A stretch of 64,000 bases of DNA from Candidatus Poribacteria bacterium (lineage in GTDB: Bacteria > Poribacteria > WGA-4E > PCPOR2b): contig OZ242351.1 in the NCBI GenBank assembly GCA_965208675.1, forward strand, positions 704,001 to 768,000, read 5' to 3'. Positions 3,981 through 51,038 of this stretch are shown one piece after another; the stretch's first letter is position 1, and each line of letters opens with the position of its first letter. Under the pieces are notes generated by a model. It was not told the origin of the DNA. It was given only the letters and a program-made list of their open reading frames with translations, and made no database searches. Both the position numbers and the translations under genes were made by a program.

Positions 3981-6197
<2,217 letters not shown>

Positions 6198-43590: not shown

Positions 43591-44334
43591 ATGATACCTA
43601 CACCTGTCCTAGTGTCTTGGTCTTCAGGTAAAGACTCCGCATGGGCGCTCTACACGCTGCGCAAGCAGCCAGAACGTTATGACGTACGCGGAATATTTAC
43701 TACGATAACTAAGACATTTGATAGGGTTTCAATTCATTCTACACCATCGTGGATTTTAGAGCAGCAAGCCCAGAGATTAGACTTGCCACTGTACGAGATT
43801 CCTATCCCCTATCCCTGCTCTGACTCACAGTATGAGTCTGCTATGAGAGCGTTCCTTAATCAAATTCAGGAACTGCCCGCGGATATCGCCGCGTCACATC
43901 TTGCATTTGGAGACCTCTTCCTTGAGGACATTCGGAAGTATCGTGAGGAAAAATTGGTCGGGACGGGCTTCACACCGATTTTCCCGGTATGGGGGCAAGA
44001 CACCACATTACTTGCTCGAAGGATGATTGGGTCGGGAATGCGGGCGATTGTTACTGCGCTTAATCCAACCATGATACCAGCAGAATTCGCCGGCAAATGG
44101 TTCGATTCCAACTTTTTAGCGGACTTACCGGAGGAAGTAGACCCGCTGGGCGAGAACGGAGAGTTTCATACGTGTGTCGTTGATGGTCCGATGTTCAGCA
44201 GCGCTATTGCAGCCAAACCCGGAAGAATTGTAGAGCGAAAAATTGCCGCCGCTTCAAATGAAGGTGATGACCTAGACAACGCCGAAAATGTCTCCCCGGC
44301 GTACGTTTACGCTGACGTAGTTCCATTGACCTGA
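43591..44334 (+). CDS. PP-loop ATP pyrophosphatase (diphthamide synthase/MJ0570-like)
   Basis: SWSSGKDS, FGDLFLED, DPLGENGEFHT. Confidence 0.9.
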   Translation: MIPTPVLVSWSSGKDSAWALYTLRKQPERYDVRGIFTTITKTFDRVSIHSTPSWILEQQAQRLDLPLYEIPIPYPCSDSQYESAMRAFLNQIQELPADIAASHLAFGDLFLEDIRKYREEKLVGTGFTPIFPVWGQDTTLLARRMIGSGMRAIVTALNPTMIPAEFAGKWFDSNFLADLPEEVDPLGENGEFHTCVVDGPMFSSAIAAKPGRIVERKIAAASNEGDDLDNAENVSPAYVYADVVPLT

Positions 44335-45368: not shown

Positions 45369-47249
45369 TCAATTGCATGGGTTTATTACAGTCGACAATG
45401 TTTCAATGAGTTCATCAAGGTACACGTGCCGAAAGAACTCTGAAAGCCGCTTCTGCCTCGGTTTAATCGGGAGCAAAATAAAGTCTGCGCGGTAAACTTG
45501 GATGGATTCAAATACCATGCGGTAGGCGTGACTCGTGGCGTAGCCAACAACCAGCGCATAATTGTCGCCGTGTTTGTCGAGATAGGCGTTGAACCGATCG
45601 ACGCCCAACTGGATTTGCGAGATGTTTCTGGGGGACAACTGGAAATCGTAGCGCACGACGGGTTCTTCAGTTTCAAATTCTTCAGGTACTGGCCCGTAAA
45701 GCCCCGAAAGCGTAACCTTGTGAATCTCCTGTTGATTCTCTCCAAAAGCCGCTTTAAGCTTGGTATTGATGATAGCGTGCGTGCGGGACAGTGAATACGG
45801 CTTTTTCCCCGCACAGGGTATTGCCAATAGCACCTTCTTGTCCCTCGGCGGCACATAACTATCTGGAATGACAAAGGAATCTGGCGTGTAATCCAGCGAG
45901 AGGTTTGTCACTTCTTCTCGAGTGGCTGGGAATAGTTCCAGTTGATTCGGGTTTCTCCTACCCGCACGCCGGTTTACCGAGGCGGGGACTGCCGCAATCG
46001 TTCTTGCCATCCGGCTGGTAAATGATTCATCGTTAGCCATCAACCAGTCGATAGCCGCACGGATGCCGCGGCCAGATGAAGCATGCCGGCACAATTCTTC
46101 TAGCGCATCATCGGCTTCAATAGCTCGTTTCATGCGAGACAGCAGTTCTGCTTCCAACTCGAAATTATGTAAGGCAATTGCCGCGTAATATTCGCTCTTA
46201 TATTTTCCGGTCGAGGTCCGTTTATAGCTTGCCGCTTCCATTAAGGCGCCCTGCATCTCATCAAGCGAAACCTCGCTGCATATTCGGCAGGTACAAGTTA
46301 GCTCATCCAACTCCATTAGTTTTCGCTTTGCTCGGGTCAATGGATCCGCATAGTTGAGGCCGCGCGCCGCCTGAATATAACTAGTGCTGTCAAAGCTATC
46401 AATCCCCATGTATGCCAGGATAGGCGCGAGTTCGCCTGAGACCCCAAAAGCGTGGATGGGCGTATGTTGGCGTGCTGAATCCGGAATCGCCCTTTGAACC
46501 CCGCAGATTCGTTCTAGCACCTCCGAATCCTGCTTCCCGCGCAGCGGCACTAAGGAGCCAATCGCAAGCCCGAACGCGGGCAGCACGCCCATAAGACGGT
46601 CAAAAACCCTTTTGACATAATCTTCAATATCCGACTGCGACTGCCCATGGCAGCAAACGTATAAAAAGGGCGGTTGCGCTTTGGTTGAGAGCAAAGTTGC
46701 CACACGGCAGGCGTTCTCCAAACTGAGGCTCATCCGTTTTTCGGCTTCGGAGCGTTCTAGCCCCGGCGGTAACGGATAGTCTAAGGAAGCGAAGATTTCT
46801 CCGCCAACGTCCTCTTGGAGCGCAAGGATATCATCGGCTTCGGTTTCCTTTTCAATACCAAATTCCGTTAAGTCTAACCCCGTGCTGTAAAGCAACTTAA
46901 ATCCGCCGGAGTCAAGAAACAGCGGGGCATTGTAGGCACCGTTTACCTCTTGGTACCATTCACGAATGGTTTTGGTGCGCCACTTCGTTAAGATTTTCCC
47001 ATTGATCGGGAAGTCCAGAAAGTGGAGGACTTGTGATAACATCGGCGTGTCACGTTTCATAAAATCGCGGAGCAGATATTTCCAGAGACCTCCGCCACGT
47101 GGAGTTGAGCCGGTCATAAATGAAACCACCGGATACAAAATCGGTGTTGACAGTGGTGATAAAACTTCGCCATTCCGTCGCAATCGAAGTTCGCCAATTC
47201 TGCCGTTTTTTCTTTGAACACTCGTATGGTACGTTGGGATTGTGGTCAT
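45369..47249 (-). CDS. Archaeosine-TGT-like transglycosylase fused to a DUF5591/ArcS-like domain
   Basis: FLDSGGF, LDYP, AIGSLVP, PIHAFG, DSFDSTSY, CTCRIC...ALHN zinc site; C-terminal PCAGKKPYSLSRTH and SGLYGPVPEE. Confidence 0.85.
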   Translation of the reverse strand: MTTIPTYHTSVQRKNGRIGELRLRRNGEVLSPLSTPILYPVVSFMTGSTPRGGGLWKYLLRDFMKRDTPMLSQVLHFLDFPINGKILTKWRTKTIREWYQEVNGAYNAPLFLDSGGFKLLYSTGLDLTEFGIEKETEADDILALQEDVGGEIFASLDYPLPPGLERSEAEKRMSLSLENACRVATLLSTKAQPPFLYVCCHGQSQSDIEDYVKRVFDRLMGVLPAFGLAIGSLVPLRGKQDSEVLERICGVQRAIPDSARQHTPIHAFGVSGELAPILAYMGIDSFDSTSYIQAARGLNYADPLTRAKRKLMELDELTCTCRICSEVSLDEMQGALMEAASYKRTSTGKYKSEYYAAIALHNFELEAELLSRMKRAIEADDALEELCRHASSGRGIRAAIDWLMANDESFTSRMARTIAAVPASVNRRAGRRNPNQLELFPATREEVTNLSLDYTPDSFVIPDSYVPPRDKKVLLAIPCAGKKPYSLSRTHAIINTKLKAAFGENQQEIHKVTLSGLYGPVPEEFETEEPVVRYDFQLSPRNISQIQLGVDRFNAYLDKHGDNYALVVGYATSHAYRMVFESIQVYRADFILLPIKPRQKRLSEFFRHVYLDELIETLSTVINPCN

Positions 47250-47417
47250 GGTACAACGTTTTTTCCGTCGGTACGATTATGATTTAGGTATGCAGTAATA
47301 TTGACTAGAATCCAATCCATAGTCATTTAGGTTCAAATTTACACAAGGAGGAATCGGCTGATTGATAATCGAGGCTAGGAAGCCTCTCCCACAAACTAAT
47401 GAGCAAATGTACAATTT

Positions 47418-48572
47418 TTAGTCACAATGGCTATAAATTTCGGATTTATAACTTCCCTGTGCCATTGGGTTTGTACGTTCAGACGAACGGCAAAATGAAC
47501 TTCTTGACAAATGTGGCCTTTTTGTAGAACGTCCATCAGATAGCTCACCAAGGCGTTTTCGCGCAATCCCGATATACGATTCTTCTTTCTCAATCATCAC
47601 CCATTTTCGGTTATTTTTTTCTGCGGCGACTCCGGTCGTCCCGGTACCGGAAAACGGATCTAGAATAAGGTCACTTTCATTGGTTCCCGCCAGGACAAGC
47701 CGTTCAACGATTTGAAGAGGCTTTTGTGAAGGGTGTTTTCCATATCTTCTTTCCGACGGTTTAGTTAGCGGTATTTCCCACATGTTCCGCATCTGCTTAT
47801 TATTATTCATTGATTTCATTGTATGATAGTTGAACGTCCAATTCTTCGCCTTCTTACTTTCATTGTTGACTGCCCATAAAATGAACTCTGTCGACTCCGT
47901 GAACATCCTACAGGTAATATTCGGCTGTGCATTCGGTTTATACCAGACGATTTGGGTAATAATCCGGCGGTCAAAAATATTTTGCATAATAAACCCAAGC
48001 GTGAAGATACTGTGAAACGAACCGAAAACAAAGATATTTCCATTTCGCTTGACGACTCGTAGAATTTCGGTGACCCAATCGAGCGTGAACTGAACATATT
48101 CGTCTTTTGAAAAAATGTCCCAACCCTCCTGCATGGTAACATGGGAACTAAACGCCCACCCCAACCCTTTCTTTTGCGACATGTTGAACGGCGGGTCGGC
48201 AATGCAACAATCGAAGACGCTGTCCGGCATTGAAGGCAGGATGCTCAGGCAATCGCCGTGTAAAATTTGCTTTACAGAAAGATTCTCGGGTGAGGTATCG
48301 GAAGGTAAGATTAAATCCGAATCTAATGGCGTGAATTGTAATTGATTTTCTGACAGGACTGCGGGTTCGGCGCTGTCGTCCGGATTGAGATCGAGATTCG
48401 GGCGAGTTGGATGATCCCCCGTCGCAATATACTGAATCAGTTGGGCTTTATTCAAATACGAATATCTTTTTAATCCACGTTTTTTCGCCTCCTTTCTCAA
48501 ATCTCTGTCTCGCATTCGGTCGAAATTCATTGGATAGCCCTTTCTCAATTCCATGTCAACTAGTCGCGCCAA
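47418..48572 (-). CDS. Beta-class N4/N6 DNA methyltransferase (DpnA-like) with N-terminal Rho_N-like domain
   Basis: ADPPFN precedes HPSQKP and LDPFSGTGTT; N-terminal DLRKEAKKRGLKRYSYLNKAQLI. Confidence 0.9.
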   Translation of the reverse strand: MARLVDMELRKGYPMNFDRMRDRDLRKEAKKRGLKRYSYLNKAQLIQYIATGDHPTRPNLDLNPDDSAEPAVLSENQLQFTPLDSDLILPSDTSPENLSVKQILHGDCLSILPSMPDSVFDCCIADPPFNMSQKKGLGWAFSSHVTMQEGWDIFSKDEYVQFTLDWVTEILRVVKRNGNIFVFGSFHSIFTLGFIMQNIFDRRIITQIVWYKPNAQPNITCRMFTESTEFILWAVNNESKKAKNWTFNYHTMKSMNNNKQMRNMWEIPLTKPSERRYGKHPSQKPLQIVERLVLAGTNESDLILDPFSGTGTTGVAAEKNNRKWVMIEKEESYIGIARKRLGELSDGRSTKRPHLSRSSFCRSSERTNPMAQGSYKSEIYSHCD

Positions 48573-48672: not shown

Positions 48673-48791
48673 TATAGTAACTACAACTAAAAATTACACA
48701 TATTAATCCGAATAAAAGAGGTGTCAACCTCCCTAGCCCCCCTTGTCAGGGGGGTATTTAATGTGTGTAAATATAAATGTAAATGGCTATA
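48673..48791. mobile_element. MITE-like element, copy 2
   Basis: Same ends as 24103-24253; central CCCCCCTTGTCAGGGGGG hairpin. Confidence 0.65.
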
Positions 48792-49811: not shown

Positions 49812-51038
49812 TCACTCTCCAATCACAACGCCGTATTCGCCCACGACGGCGCCTCTGTGCTTGTCTTGATAGTGCATGTGCCGCTCTCCTACGATCGACT
49901 GTGTGCTCTGGACTTCGATAGTACCGAGAACATTTCCCATGGCGTTGTCGTCAACATCCCAACAGCAGAAGGGTTTAATAGTATTGTGAAGCTGTCTGAG
50001 TACATTTCCATGCCTATCACGAATCACGATGTTGACCATGGCATCAGCCTCATCGACGTTCAAGAAGCGAAACCAGTCATGCGCCCCGGTGTAGACTTCG
50101 GGAAAAAAGAGGTGGCGTCCGACATGTCCGCCCTCAGCCGATGCACCCGGGAGATCGACAATACTTGTGCCGCTGTGCATGTGGCGTTCCGCTGCGATGG
50201 ACTGGTCGCTCCGAGCTTCGAGGGAAGATTTTATTTTGATTGCATCCATATCTGGCGTCCAGCATTCAAACGAACTAAGTGTCTGTTCCGCCGACCACAC
50301 GGGGTTACCGGTGCCATCCTCTCTTGCTATGAGTGTAACTTTTGCCTCTTCCTGACCAACATTCACAACAATTGCCCAATCGTGCCAAGCTGGTCCAACT
50401 TCAGGGAAGTACAGTGTGGTTGGACCGTCCGAAATGACCTGCCCAAATTGACCGACCGAAGTTTGCCCCCCCTGATAGTGTAGATGCCGTTCACCAACAA
50501 CGGGTTGTGTGCTCTGCACTTCGACGGTTCCGACCACATTTCCCATGGTTTCCTCCGCGAGATCCCAAGTACAAAGCGGTGGAATCTGACGATGATGCTG
50601 TCTAATGACGTCTCCATTTCTGTTGCGGATTACCAGGTTCACTAGCGCTTCTGCTTCCCCAACATTCAAAAATCGAAACCAGTCTCGTGCGCCGGACACC
50701 AGTTCGGGAAAAAAAAGTCGTTGACCGACCGTTTCATATTCTTCGGCTGCGCCCACAAAATCCATAACATTGGTGCCGCCGTGCATATGCCGCTCTGCAA
50801 CAATCGGCTGGTCAGCCGTGAATTGCATGGAGGAATTCTCTCCAATTGCTTCAACATTGGGTGTCCAGCATTCAAACGCGTCAATTTCCTTTTCCTCGGA
50901 CCATATGGGCTGGCCATTCGCTGGATTCCTTGCAATTGCCAATACTTTTGTAGGCTCATTCCCGACATTGACTACCTGCACCCAATCTTCCCACGCGGGC
51001 CCGACTTCAGGGAAATAGAGTGTCGTTGCTCCTGGCAT
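49812..51038 (-). CDS. Four-repeat beta-domain protein of unknown function
   Basis: Four units L[YF]FPE...NV...ERH[ML]H in ABAB order. Confidence 0.75.
   Translation of the reverse strand: MPGATTLYFPEVGPAWEDWVQVVNVGNEPTKVLAIARNPANGQPIWSEEKEIDAFECWTPNVEAIGENSSMQFTADQPIVAERHMHGGTNVMDFVGAAEEYETVGQRLFFPELVSGARDWFRFLNVGEAEALVNLVIRNRNGDVIRQHHRQIPPLCTWDLAEETMGNVVGTVEVQSTQPVVGERHLHYQGGQTSVGQFGQVISDGPTTLYFPEVGPAWHDWAIVVNVGQEEAKVTLIAREDGTGNPVWSAEQTLSSFECWTPDMDAIKIKSSLEARSDQSIAAERHMHSGTSIVDLPGASAEGGHVGRHLFFPEVYTGAHDWFRFLNVDEADAMVNIVIRDRHGNVLRQLHNTIKPFCCWDVDDNAMGNVLGTIEVQSTQSIVGERHMHYQDKHRGAVVGEYGVVIGE

What the first reader, a model, noticed from the sequence alone, without database searches (positions are those of the whole stretch)
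45369..48572. Candidate new DNA-modification module: TGT-ArcS-like fusion paired with a DNA methyltransferase
Seen: a TGT barrel with archaeal-type motifs (LDYP, IGSLVP, HAFG, FDSTSY, CxCxxC..H) and HG where tRNA TGTs have QG. It is fused to a DUF5591-type domain (PCxxKKPYSxSxxH), shows no recognisable PUA RNA-binding domain, and lies directly downstream of a co-oriented DpnA-like methyltransferase. Known: DpdA, a TGT paralog, inserts 7-deazaguanines into DNA, and ArcS-type domains act on the preQ0 nitrile in archaeosine synthesis. Inference: one polypeptide may exchange guanine and then convert the base in DNA, alongside methylation. No dpdB-K, queC/D/E or restriction nuclease is adjacent, so this is not the canonical dpd island.
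Basis: partly seen in the sequence, partly recalled or inferred. Interest (0 to 1): 0.85.

Follow-up and report, generated by a model that had tools for sequence, protein, structure and literature searches.

The report
Fused deazaguanine transglycosylase–ArcS enzyme gene
A sponge-associated bacterium carries one gene that joins a guanine-swapping enzyme to an archaeosine-synthase core, and its relatives sit in deazaguanine DNA-defence islands, so it probably marks DNA rather than tRNA; the neighbouring methylase is a separate leftover.

Summary
Window 45369-47249(-) encodes a 626-aa protein with an intact TGT catalytic domain, an ArcS-type C1 domain (DUF5591, exact PC-X3-KPY-X2-S-X2-H motif) and no PUA domain. 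A co-oriented DNA methyltransferase lies 168 bp upstream.

The organism is a Candidatus Poribacteria MAG. It also has a canonical bacterial Tgt and QueC/D/E/F.

The "paired with a methyltransferase" reading is weak:
- The MTase belongs to a type II R-M cassette. In relatives it comes with a MutH/Sau3AI-like or another type II nuclease.
- It is present in 15 of 42 poribacterial loci and 0 of 80 metagenome loci. In the window it is an orphan.

The DNA-modification reading gains support from the wider family. 67 of 80 metagenome loci, plus two haloarchaeal megaplasmids, place TGT-DUF5591 genes beside at least one of the tallied neighbour types. These include QueC/D/E, a YhhQ-type transporter, DpdJ-/DpdH-like proteins, PLD-like proteins, DUF6884 and a GHKL ATPase; many loci also hold a second short TGT.

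The gene is patchy in the phylum (47 of 151 genomes).

Both halves resemble the Vibrio phage nt-1 DpdA2/ArcS2 pair, which makes dG+ in DNA.

Best reading (about 0.55): a single-polypeptide 7-deazaguanine DNA modifier, a new variant of Dpd-type systems. A tRNA/RNA target is not excluded.

The parts
45369..47249 (-). Gene for the 626-aa TGT-DUF5591 protein (P0001)
   Evidence: ORF, translation, Pfam TGT + DUF5591. The full-length start is supported by homologs covering residue 1 (P0004, 93% identity, 100% coverage). AlphaFold2 mean pLDDT 90.2, pTM 0.89.
45990..47249 (-). Residues 1-420: TGT catalytic barrel with Zn site and helical extension. Key residues are D113 (DSGG), D157 (LDYP), H201-G202, GSLVP 231-235, D287 (FDS), C319/C321/C324/H361
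   Evidence: Family alignment. PDB profile search gives arcTGT 1iq8 at E 3e-32 over profile positions 4-418. Foldseek best hits are 1iq8/1j2b.
45909..45989 (-). Residues 421-447: low-confidence, Arg-rich linker
   Evidence: pLDDT below 50 for residues 424-444; sequence AVPASVNRRAGRRNPNQ.
45369..45908 (-). Residues 448-626 plus stop: ArcS-type C1 domain (DUF5591) with PCAGKKPYSLSRTH and SGLYGPVP
   Evidence: Pfam DUF5591. NCBIfam ArcS model positions 287-402. PDB AF0587 (2q07) at E 7.3e-13. BFVD fold hit to the Vibrio phage nt-1 DUF5591 protein R9TEI9 at E 2.2e-4.
47250..47417 (.). 168-bp spacer between the MTase and TGT genes; no restriction-nuclease remnant
   Evidence: tblastn with the relatives' nucleases gives no hit here. 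The scan found no terminator-like site on the minus strand in this gap (scan counts were not above shuffles).
47418..48572 (-). Orphan beta-class (N6/N4) DNA methyltransferase. The likely true start is Met15 at 48530, and the C-terminal tail of about 40 aa is shared only with L018
   Evidence: Pfam N6_N4_Mtase 1.3e-49, PADLOC MTase_II 3.7e-75. Most orthologs start MNF/MSF.., aligned with residue 15.
48700..48727 (-). Promoter-like site upstream of the MTase (weak evidence)
   Evidence: 10 of 12 consensus matches. The number of such sites in the region (9) is not above shuffles (7.1 +/- 2.9).

Best explanation
The gene encodes a single-polypeptide 7-deazaguanine nucleic-acid modification enzyme that most likely acts on DNA.

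Inferred mechanism:
1. The N-terminal TGT barrel has its general acid/base Asp113, base-binding Asp157 and His201, nucleophile Asp287 and Zn site all intact. It excises a guanine and inserts preQ0. The cell makes preQ0 with its own QueC/D/E.
2. The C-terminal ArcS-type C1 domain then adds an amine to the 7-cyano group. This gives an amidine (dG+-like) or an amino-acid adduct.

The protein belongs to an unnamed family that elsewhere is a component of Dpd-like 7-deazaguanine modification/restriction islands. In this Poribacteria genome it stands alone as an orphan modifier.

The upstream methyltransferase is the surviving half of an independent, probably GATC-type, type II R-M cassette that tends to lie at this position. 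It is not a functional partner.

Shown: domain content, intact motifs, gene contexts, distribution. Inferred: substrate (DNA), donor, product and biological role.
For: (1) Intact catalytic, Zn and ArcS motifs are conserved across 26 diverse homologs. The model is confident: pLDDT 90.2.

(2) No PUA or other RNA-binding C-terminal domain.

(3) The genome already has a canonical bacterial Tgt (541 bits), QueC, QueD, QueE and QueF. preQ0 is therefore available, and the ordinary tRNA pathway has its own enzyme.

(4) Family context in 80 metagenome loci:
- GHKL ATPase 40
- DUF6884 32
- a second short TGT 33
- DpdJ-like helicase 22 (PADLOC 3.8e-54)
- QueD 18, QueC 16, QueE 14
- small PLD-like protein 16
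- DpdH-like 9 (7.3e-18)
- YhhQ/Vut_1 transporter 6
In all, 67 of 80 loci have at least one of the tallied clusters. In several contigs (L103, L120, L106) the long form is the only TGT seen in the stretch held, next to a DpdJ-like helicase and a PLD-like protein; in L103 and L120 a YhhQ-type transporter follows.

(5) Two haloarchaeal megaplasmids carry full-length homologs (34% identity, 96% coverage) among PbeA-, DruE/DpdJ- and MkoA-like proteins, a short TGT and DUF6884.

(6) In Poribacteria the gene is accessory:
- Strong matches occur in 47 of 151 genomes (families f1 21/25, f2 8/10, f3 17/100, others 0/15).
- Four genomes have a second copy; one of these carries a stop. One further genome has the gene split in two.
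- Its immediate neighbours are repeatedly defence or que genes: R-M cassette 15/42; QueD-like PTPS directly upstream in 3 of 9 lineage-2 loci; HKD+Snf2 helicase (PADLOC 1.8e-83) in 2; Dam MTase in 2.

(7) Precedent: Vibrio phage nt-1 DpdA2 inserts dPreQ0 and its stand-alone DUF5591 protein ArcS2 converts it to dG+ in E. coli (PMC10516641, passages and Table 3 read). The model's two halves hit exactly these two nt-1 proteins in BFVD: R9TGF0 at 3.3e-9 and R9TEI9 at 2.2e-4.

(8) His-Gly at the base-binding position is as in S. Montevideo DpdA (H181-G182; PMC10164549 passages; 'aHG' visible in the 7ui4 alignment).

(9) In a quick tree the long forms group with the bona fide DpdA/short-TGT clade, apart from an arcTGT homolog (SH-aLRT 98).
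Against: - No experiment or read-level evidence bears on the substrate.
- By profile score the catalytic domain is nearer arcTGT (PDB 3e-32; NCBIfam TgtA 86 bits) than DpdA (PDB 7ui4 0.0046; NCBIfam DpdA 24.9 bits against a cut-off of 200).
- A true DpdA from another Poribacteria genome scores 308 bits on the same PADLOC DpdA model that gives P0001 24.7 bits.
- His-Gly is not a DNA signature: the poribacterial DpdA fusions have Gln-Gly.
- In this genome no DUF6884, no YhhQ and no DpdJ-like gene were found, and no nuclease partner is adjacent. There is no restriction arm here.
- The poribacterial copies are monophyletic (SH-aLRT 94). Their identity to the window's protein tracks that of housekeeping neighbours (TGT 92/83/83% against ArgRS 91/81/76% in L001/L002/L018). 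That would also suit a housekeeping RNA enzyme.
- T. kodakarensis ArcS is active only in complex with RaSEA (PMC11298593, passages), and no RaSEA (TIGR01210) was found in G000, which is 96.4% complete.
- The 80 metagenome loci include many close relatives from similar samples, so the counts are not independent.
- The tree is a quick search with one bacterial Tgt and one arcTGT row.
Confidence: 0.55

Rival explanations
1. It is an RNA (tRNA or rRNA) modification enzyme: a bacterial, PUA-less counterpart of arcTGT plus ArcS that installs preQ0 and converts it to an archaeosine-like base in RNA. The defence-gene neighbours would then be incidental.
For: - The best profile matches are arcTGT and ArcS.
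- The ArcS motif is exact.
- ArcS needs no tRNA shape and accepts even a preQ0 nucleotide (PMC11298593 passages). [quoted passage not shown]
- Within Poribacteria the gene looks vertically inherited, and its identity to the window's protein tracks that of housekeeping neighbours.
- No restriction partner is present in this genome.
Against: - Patchy presence: 47 of 151 genomes, 0 of 15 outside three families, with duplicated and broken copies.
- The family sits with extra QueC/D/E copies, DpdJ-/DpdH-like proteins, PLD-like proteins and DUF6884 on plasmids and metagenome contigs.
- No RNA-binding domain.
- The genome has its own bacterial Tgt pathway.
Confidence: 0.25
2. The methyltransferase and the TGT-ArcS protein form one obligate two-mark DNA-modification module. 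For example, both might protect the same GATC-type sites from the cassette's nuclease.
For: - The MTase lies directly upstream and co-oriented in 15 of 42 poribacterial loci, across at least four different flanking contexts.
- The identities of the two proteins to the window's copies track each other closely.
- In six loci the order is MTase, MutH-like nuclease, TGT, with short gaps: 22 and 112 bp in L015.
- No terminator-like site was found in the window's gap.
- GATC is under-represented in the window (observed/expected 0.49).
Against: - The TGT gene occurs without the MTase in 27 of 42 poribacterial loci, including the closest relative L001, which has the same flanks.
- It occurs without it in 80 of 80 metagenome loci.
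- The MTase has its own nuclease partners of two unrelated kinds, as an ordinary R-M cassette does.
- Two poribacterial lineages never show it.
Confidence: 0.08
3. It acts on something other than a nucleic-acid polymer. It might conjugate a 7-deazaguanine to a protein (as CBASS Cap10 does), or convert free preQ0 or a nucleotide into a metabolite.
For: - A TGT-family enzyme that conjugates a deazaguanine to protein exists (abstract of 10.1101/2025.04.06.647259 in the listing).
- Cap10 (9ntn) is a weak hit of the family profile: E 3.8e-5 over about 54 positions.
- ArcS accepts a preQ0 nucleotide (PMC11298593).
Against: - The Cap10 match is short and far weaker than the match to arcTGT.
- None of the top-25 neighbour clusters that were named, and no neighbour annotated in the poribacterial loci, is a CD-NTase or other CBASS gene. 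Most neighbour clusters were not annotated.
- The neighbours that recur are DNA helicases and nucleases.
Confidence: 0.07

Closest known systems
Vibrio phage nt-1 DpdA2 + ArcS2 (two proteins; dPreQ0 inserted into DNA, then converted to dG+)
   Same: The same two activities are predicted: a TGT-family base exchanger plus a PUA-less DUF5591 core. The model's two halves hit the two nt-1 proteins in BFVD: R9TGF0 at 3.3e-9 and R9TEI9 at 2.2e-4. The ArcS motif is conserved (motif from PMC10516641).
   Different: Here the two parts are one polypeptide in a cellular genome. No phage or viral contig with the fusion was found. Sequence identity to the phage proteins is low (13-16% in the structural alignments). 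The activity here is untested.
Bacterial Dpd system (DpdA/DpdB insert preQ0 into DNA, DpdC makes dADG, DpdD-K restrict; S. Montevideo)
   Same: TGT-fold enzyme with the same Asp triad and His-Gly base contact (PMC10164549 passages). Relatives of this gene lie beside DpdJ-like and DpdH-like proteins, DUF6884 (a weak DpdC match) and que genes.
   Different: - The protein fails the DpdA models: 24.9 bits against a cut-off of 200.
- The nitrile-converting part is ArcS-type, not DpdC-type.
- The ATPase found next to relatives is GHKL-type. From memory, DpdB is ParB-like.
- This genome has no restriction arm nearby.
Archaeal arcTGT (TgtA) and ArcS (tRNA G15 to preQ0 to G+)
   Same: Best profile and fold matches. 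Same catalytic and Zn motifs as arcTGT. Exact ArcS C1 motif.
   Different: - No C2 or PUA domains.
- Far below both equivalog cut-offs: 86.1 against 350, and 85.6 against 440.
- His instead of Gln at the base contact.
- Bacterial host with its own Tgt.
- No RaSEA.
DUF6884-DpdA fusion proteins of other Poribacteria (seen here in L140-L144)
   Same: Same logic in one polypeptide: a transglycosylase joined to a putative nitrile- or base-handling domain, in the same phylum, beside helicase and nuclease genes.
   Different: - Opposite domain order.
- A bona fide DpdA domain (PADLOC 1.6e-92; 7ui4 1.2e-60).
- DUF6884 instead of DUF5591.
- Gln-Gly instead of His-Gly.

Membership tests
DpdA (DNA-guanine transglycosylase; NCBIfam NF041059, PADLOC DpdA) | Score over the family model's cut-off | tested here: not met
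   NF041059 gives 24.9 bits against a cut-off of 200. PADLOC DpdA gives 24.7 bits, against 308.5 bits for a poribacterial DpdA fusion. PDB 7ui4 is hit at E 0.0046.
DpdA (DNA-guanine transglycosylase; NCBIfam NF041059, PADLOC DpdA) | Three active-site Asp residues plus a His-Gly base contact (D95, D130, D256, H181, G182 in S. Montevideo DpdA) | tested here: met
   D113, D157 and D287 are invariant; H201-G202 is at least 90% conserved. Residue roles come from PMC10164549. The equivalence rests on the arcTGT and own-Tgt alignments, not on a direct alignment to DpdA.
DpdA (DNA-guanine transglycosylase; NCBIfam NF041059, PADLOC DpdA) | Acts on DNA with an ATPase partner (DpdB) | not testable with these tools
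   No ATPase gene is adjacent in the window. DpdB models were not searched genome-wide. Relatives have a GHKL ATPase next to a second short TGT.
arcTGT / TgtA (TIGR00432) | Score over the equivalog cut-off; C2 and PUA domains | tested here: not met
   86.1 bits against a cut-off of 350. No PUA or TGT_C2 hit. The protein ends after the C1-type domain.
arcTGT / TgtA (TIGR00432) | TGT barrel with catalytic Asp residues and a CxCxxC...H zinc site | tested here: met
ArcS (archaeosine synthase alpha; NF040592) | C1-domain motif PC-X3-KPY-X2-S-X2-H | tested here: met
   PCAGKKPYSLSRTH. P484 and Y485 are invariant; K483 and S488 are at least 90% conserved. The motif is as quoted in PMC10516641 and PMC5699537.
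ArcS (archaeosine synthase alpha; NF040592) | Score over the equivalog cut-off; PUA domain; RaSEA partner | tested here: not met
   85.6 bits against a cut-off of 440. No PUA. TIGR01210 has no match in G000 (96.4% complete), while the control search rang over the cut-off in 3 control genomes; the three archaea it named include M. jannaschii, H. volcanii and M. acetivorans.
Phage ArcS2 (stand-alone DUF5591 core) | DUF5591 domain without TGT, C2 or PUA domains | tested here: not met
   The DUF5591 domain is present (51.6 bits, cut-off 26) but is fused to a full TGT domain.
Type II restriction-modification system (for the upstream gene) | DNA methyltransferase with a cognate restriction nuclease | tested here: not met
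   The MTase is present. No nuclease lies in the window's gap. The nucleases are present in 9 related loci: 6 MutH-like and 3 PADLOC REase_II. The window copy is an orphan.

The most novel reading that the evidence does not exclude
TGT-DUF5591 proteins are a previously undescribed, widespread class of single-polypeptide DNA hypermodification enzymes (G to preQ0 to an amidine or amino-acid adduct). They would serve as the modification arm of a new branch of Dpd-like systems. That branch includes minimal sets (DpdJ-like helicase + PLD-like protein + TGT-DUF5591 + YhhQ) and larger haloarchaeal sets (with DUF6884, a second TGT, a GHKL ATPase and QueC/D/E). In Poribacteria, sponge symbionts, the enzyme would persist as an orphan that marks the host chromosome with a 7-deazaguanine base.
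Probability: 0.4. Interest if true: 0.8.

Novelty: new variant of a known kind. Interest (0 to 1): 0.62.

Why it matters
7-Deazaguanine marks in DNA are known from the bacterial Dpd island and from phages. In both, base insertion (DpdA) and conversion of the nitrile (DpdC, ArcS2, Gat-QueC, QueF-L) are done by separate proteins.

If this family does both steps in one chain, three things follow:
- It gives a compact, portable tool for installing dG+-like bases in DNA.
- It widens the known range of cellular (not only phage) genomes that carry such bases, to Poribacteria, haloarchaea and other lineages.
- It defines new Dpd-like defence systems whose restriction arms could be tested directly.

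It also offers a natural experiment on how a tRNA-type transglycosylase is retargeted to DNA.

For the window itself, the practical message is that the methylase next door is an R-M relic, not part of the device.

Tried and rejected
- Phage and viral origin: tblastn against 50,697 phage records gave no match. A scan of IMG/VR with the family alignment gave only 5 distant TGT-only hits and no fusion.
- MTase as partner: rejected as an obligate partner, for the reasons under the rival explanations.
- Remnant of a restriction nuclease in the 168-bp gap: none.
- Co-transcription of MTase and TGT: the promoter/terminator scan was not above shuffles, so nothing is concluded.
- Expression: no RNA holder was listed for the stretch.
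- RaSEA, DUF6884, YhhQ/Vut_1 and a DpdJ-like helicase were looked for in the window's genome and not found. The DpdJ search used one protein query only and has no positive control.
- His-Gly as a DNA-versus-RNA marker: rejected, because the poribacterial DpdA fusions have Gln-Gly.
- Literature: I found no description of a TGT-DUF5591 protein in a DNA-modification system. The searches were 'DUF5591' (2 papers, one work), 'DpdA+ArcS+7-deazaguanine', 'ArcS2', 'DpdA+fused+archaeosine synthase', 'DUF6884', '7-deazaguanine/haloarchaea/DNA modification/transglycosylase', 'DpdA+haloarchae', 'TgtA5' and 'RaSEA+archaeosine+ArcS'. Subscription papers are not covered.
- Complex prediction was not used: no binding claim is made.
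- The names of most window neighbours (ArgRS, RsfS, YqeK, NadD, EamA, GNAT, TatD and others) are my reading of the translations, not tool results.

Full report
WHAT IS THERE

The window belongs to a complete-looking chromosome of a Candidatus Poribacteria MAG. Its closest loci all carry that title, and the genome is 4.89 Mb in one contig, 96.4% complete.

The ORF 45369-47249 on the minus strand encodes 626 residues. Pfam finds a TGT domain (residues 106-386) and DUF5591 (463-583), both over their cut-offs. NCBIfam's best models are arcTGT/TgtA (86.1 bits) and ArcS (85.6 bits), with DpdA far behind (24.9 bits). All three are far below their equivalog cut-offs.

In an alignment of 26 homologs at 30-61% identity, the following are invariant or nearly so:
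- the TGT catalytic residues D113, D157 and D287;
- the base-contact pair H201-G202;
- the GSLVP loop;
- the zinc ligands C319, C321, C324 and H361;
- the ArcS C1 motif (K483, P484, Y485, S488).

The AlphaFold2 model is confident (mean pLDDT 90.2, pTM 0.89). It shows a barrel with a helical extension, a disordered Arg-rich linker (424-444) and one C-terminal alpha/beta domain. There is no PUA domain. Foldseek and a PDB profile search place the N-terminal part nearest P. horikoshii arcTGT (E 3e-32) and the C-terminal part nearest AF0587 (2q07, 7.3e-13). S. Montevideo DpdA (7ui4) is a marginal hit at 0.0046.

The gene 168 bp upstream, 47418-48572(-), is an N6/N4 DNA methylase. Its real start is probably Met15 at 48530.

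THE METHYLTRANSFERASE IS A SEPARATE R-M CASSETTE

I compared 42 poribacterial loci: the window, 21 loci and 20 regions. ORFs were clustered. The TGT-DUF5591 gene falls into three lineages.

The MTase is upstream in 15 of 42 loci, all in one lineage. It occurs in at least four different flanking contexts.

- In six of these loci a 205-aa MutH/Sau3AI-type nuclease lies between the MTase and TGT genes (Pfam MutH 1.6e-11; PADLOC REase_II 1.5e-11).
- In three loci a DUF6996/DUF6997 protein lies there on the other strand (PADLOC REase_II 7.6e-31).
- One locus adds a Dam-type methylase.

Within the window's own flanking context the series runs as follows: MTase plus nuclease plus TGT (L002), MTase plus TGT (the window and L018, which share a read-through tail on the MTase), and TGT alone (L001, the closest relative). 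That is the usual decay of an R-M cassette beside a stable gene.

None of 80 metagenome loci has such an MTase.

GATC is under-represented in the window (observed/expected 0.49). This fits a GATC-type system in the lineage's past but does not prove it. The target site was not determined.

WHAT THE FAMILY KEEPS COMPANY WITH

The library search found 666 representatives at E<=0.001 and 102 at E<=1e-30. Many are full-length at 33-47% identity. The ESM Atlas shows TGT+DUF5591 clusters in both Bacteria and Archaea.

Two haloarchaeal megaplasmids carry full-length copies (34% identity, 96% coverage) among PbeA-, DruE/DpdJ- and MkoA-like proteins. In Haladaptatus there are two long copies, a short TGT, an ATPase and a DUF6884 protein within 25 kb.

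Of 80 metagenome loci, clustering and annotation give:
- a GHKL ATPase in 40;
- DUF6884 in 32;
- a second, short TGT paralog in 33;
- a DpdJ-like helicase in 22 (PADLOC 3.8e-54);
- QueD in 18, QueC in 16, QueE in 14;
- a small PLD-like protein in 16;
- a DpdH-like NTPase in 9;
- a YhhQ/Vut_1 transporter in 6;
- HerA/NurA in 4.

In all, 67 of 80 loci hold at least one of the tallied clusters, although 16 loci are shorter than 4.5 kb. The loci are not independent: many are close relatives from similar, apparently hypersaline, samples.

In some contigs (L103, L120, L106) the long form is the only TGT in the stretch held, next to a DpdJ-like helicase and a PLD-like protein. In L103 and L120 a YhhQ-type transporter follows. 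That looks like a minimal modification-restriction set. In these sets the long form would have to insert the base itself.

In Poribacteria, the two lineages without the MTase show other neighbours:
- a QueD-like PTPS gene directly upstream in 3 of 9 loci;
- an HKD+Snf2 helicase in 2 loci (PADLOC 1.8e-83);
- a Dam methylase and a GNAT gene in 1 locus;
- an Fe-alcohol dehydrogenase downstream in all 12 loci of the third lineage, probably mere synteny.

DISTRIBUTION

Among 151 genomes of the phylum, strong full-length matches occur in 47: family f1 21/25, f2 8/10, f3 17/100, six other families 0/15. Four genomes have a second copy, one of which is interrupted by TAG. One genome has the gene split in two.

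The poribacterial copies are monophyletic in a quick tree (SH-aLRT 94). This pattern suggests one early gain, duplication and many losses. It marks the gene as accessory.

The window's genome has a canonical bacterial Tgt, QueC, QueD, QueE and QueF. preQ0 is therefore made, and the queuosine pathway does not need this protein. RaSEA, DUF6884, YhhQ and a DpdJ-like helicase were not found.

HOW IT MOST LIKELY WORKS

By analogy with published enzymology, the barrel would flip out a guanine, form a covalent Asp287-sugar intermediate and install preQ0. The C1 domain would then attack the nitrile with an amine.

- Roles of the Asp residues and of His181 in DpdA come from PMC10164549 (passages).
- For ArcS, M. 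jannaschii ArcS uses NH4+, Asn or Gln directly. T. kodakarensis ArcS transfers lysine, and only in complex with RaSEA (PMC11298593, passages).
- In E. coli, Vibrio phage nt-1 DpdA2 alone gives dPreQ0 in DNA, and adding its stand-alone DUF5591 protein ArcS2 gives dG+ (PMC10516641, Table 3 and text).
- The present model's two halves hit those two nt-1 proteins in BFVD.

The fusion, the missing PUA domain, the family's neighbours and the accessory distribution all point to DNA as the substrate.

Against this stand the higher profile similarity to arcTGT, the lack of any restriction arm in this genome, and divergence that tracks housekeeping neighbours. The product (dG+, a lysine adduct or plain dPreQ0) is open.

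I put the DNA reading at about 0.55, an RNA target at about 0.25, an obligate MTase-TGT module at about 0.08, and a non-polymer target at about 0.07.

COMPARISON WITH WHAT IS KNOWN, AND NOVELTY

The protein is not a member of DpdA, arcTGT or ArcS by their curated models. It carries the defining catalytic features of the first two and the C1 motif of the third.

It works most like the phage DpdA2+ArcS2 pair, in one chain and in cellular genomes.

Canonical ArcS already has a TGT-like N-terminal domain (PMC10516641 passage). So the new points are:
- the intact transglycosylase site;
- the loss of the C2 and PUA domains;
- the Dpd-like company the family keeps.

I found no description of this in the nine literature searches listed under Tried and rejected.

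I rate it a new variant of a known kind. Interest is 0.62: a specialist would find the family and its Dpd-like contexts worth a bench test, but the specific claim of the finding (pairing with the methylase) does not hold, and the substrate is unproven.

Noticed in passing
L140:6383-8308(+), L141:6219-8045(+), L142:7001-8761(-), L143:5912-7690(+), L144:7077-8795(-): Other Poribacteria genomes, some without the TGT-DUF5591 gene and one (G049) with it, carry proteins of about 570-640 aa whose C-terminal part is a bona fide DpdA (for L141: PADLOC DpdA 1.6e-92; PDB 7ui4 1.2e-60). The N-terminal part is DUF6884-like: a weak PDC-M57A hit (1.5e-6) plus motifs by eye. HerA-like, UvrD-like, Cas4-like and PD-(D/E)xK genes flank them. 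This looks like a second kind of insertion-plus-conversion fusion in the same phylum.
   Followed up: partly
Metagenome loci such as L104, L108, L109, L122 and L089; plasmid locus L025: A recurring, apparently haloarchaeal gene set: long TGT-DUF5591, DUF6884, short TGT (about 415 aa), GHKL ATPase (about 517 aa). It is often accompanied by divergent queD-queE-queC genes and a DpdJ-like helicase plus a small PLD-like protein. I found no description of it in the papers searched.
   Followed up: partly
model mff43c038a4e7, residues ~448-626: In BFVD the C-terminal domain also gives weak fold matches to YaaA and DUF6884 proteins (E 4.3e-3, 1.4e-2, 8.8e-2). This hints that the ArcS C1 domain and the DpdC-like DUF6884/YaaA fold may be related.
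   Followed up: no
window 1-64000: Palindromic tetramers GATC (observed/expected 0.49), GGCC (0.37) and AGCT (0.64) are under-represented against a second-order expectation. The other twelve tested lie between 0.79 and 1.0.
   Followed up: no
window 43591-44334 (+): A 247-aa ORF with an SSGKDS PP-loop-like motif (by eye it resembles an ATP pyrophosphatase of the Dph6/MJ0570 type). It lies about 1 kb downstream of the TGT gene on the other strand. It is kept only in the window's own flanking context (the window and L001).
   Followed up: no
window 49812-51038 (-): A 408-aa ORF made of two similar halves (repeated TTLYFPEVGPAW...VVNVG... blocks, by eye). No family was sought for it.
   Followed up: no
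G061:C1:1273191-1275078 and G114:C1:3513611-3515502: A second copy of the gene in G061 is interrupted by a TAG stop. The single copy in G114 is split into two ORFs. L019 (a locus) likewise shows the gene as two ORFs of 167 and 473 aa. These are signs of ongoing loss.
   Followed up: no
L003:5179-5838 (-): A 219-aa ORF between the MTase and TGT genes ends with a stretch that by eye resembles the C-terminus of the DUF6996/6997 nuclease of L002. It may be a decayed nuclease.
   Followed up: no
window 4001-6000: GC content rises to 0.593 against 0.43-0.53 elsewhere in the window. No Rfam or tRNA hit was found anywhere in the window.
   Followed up: no
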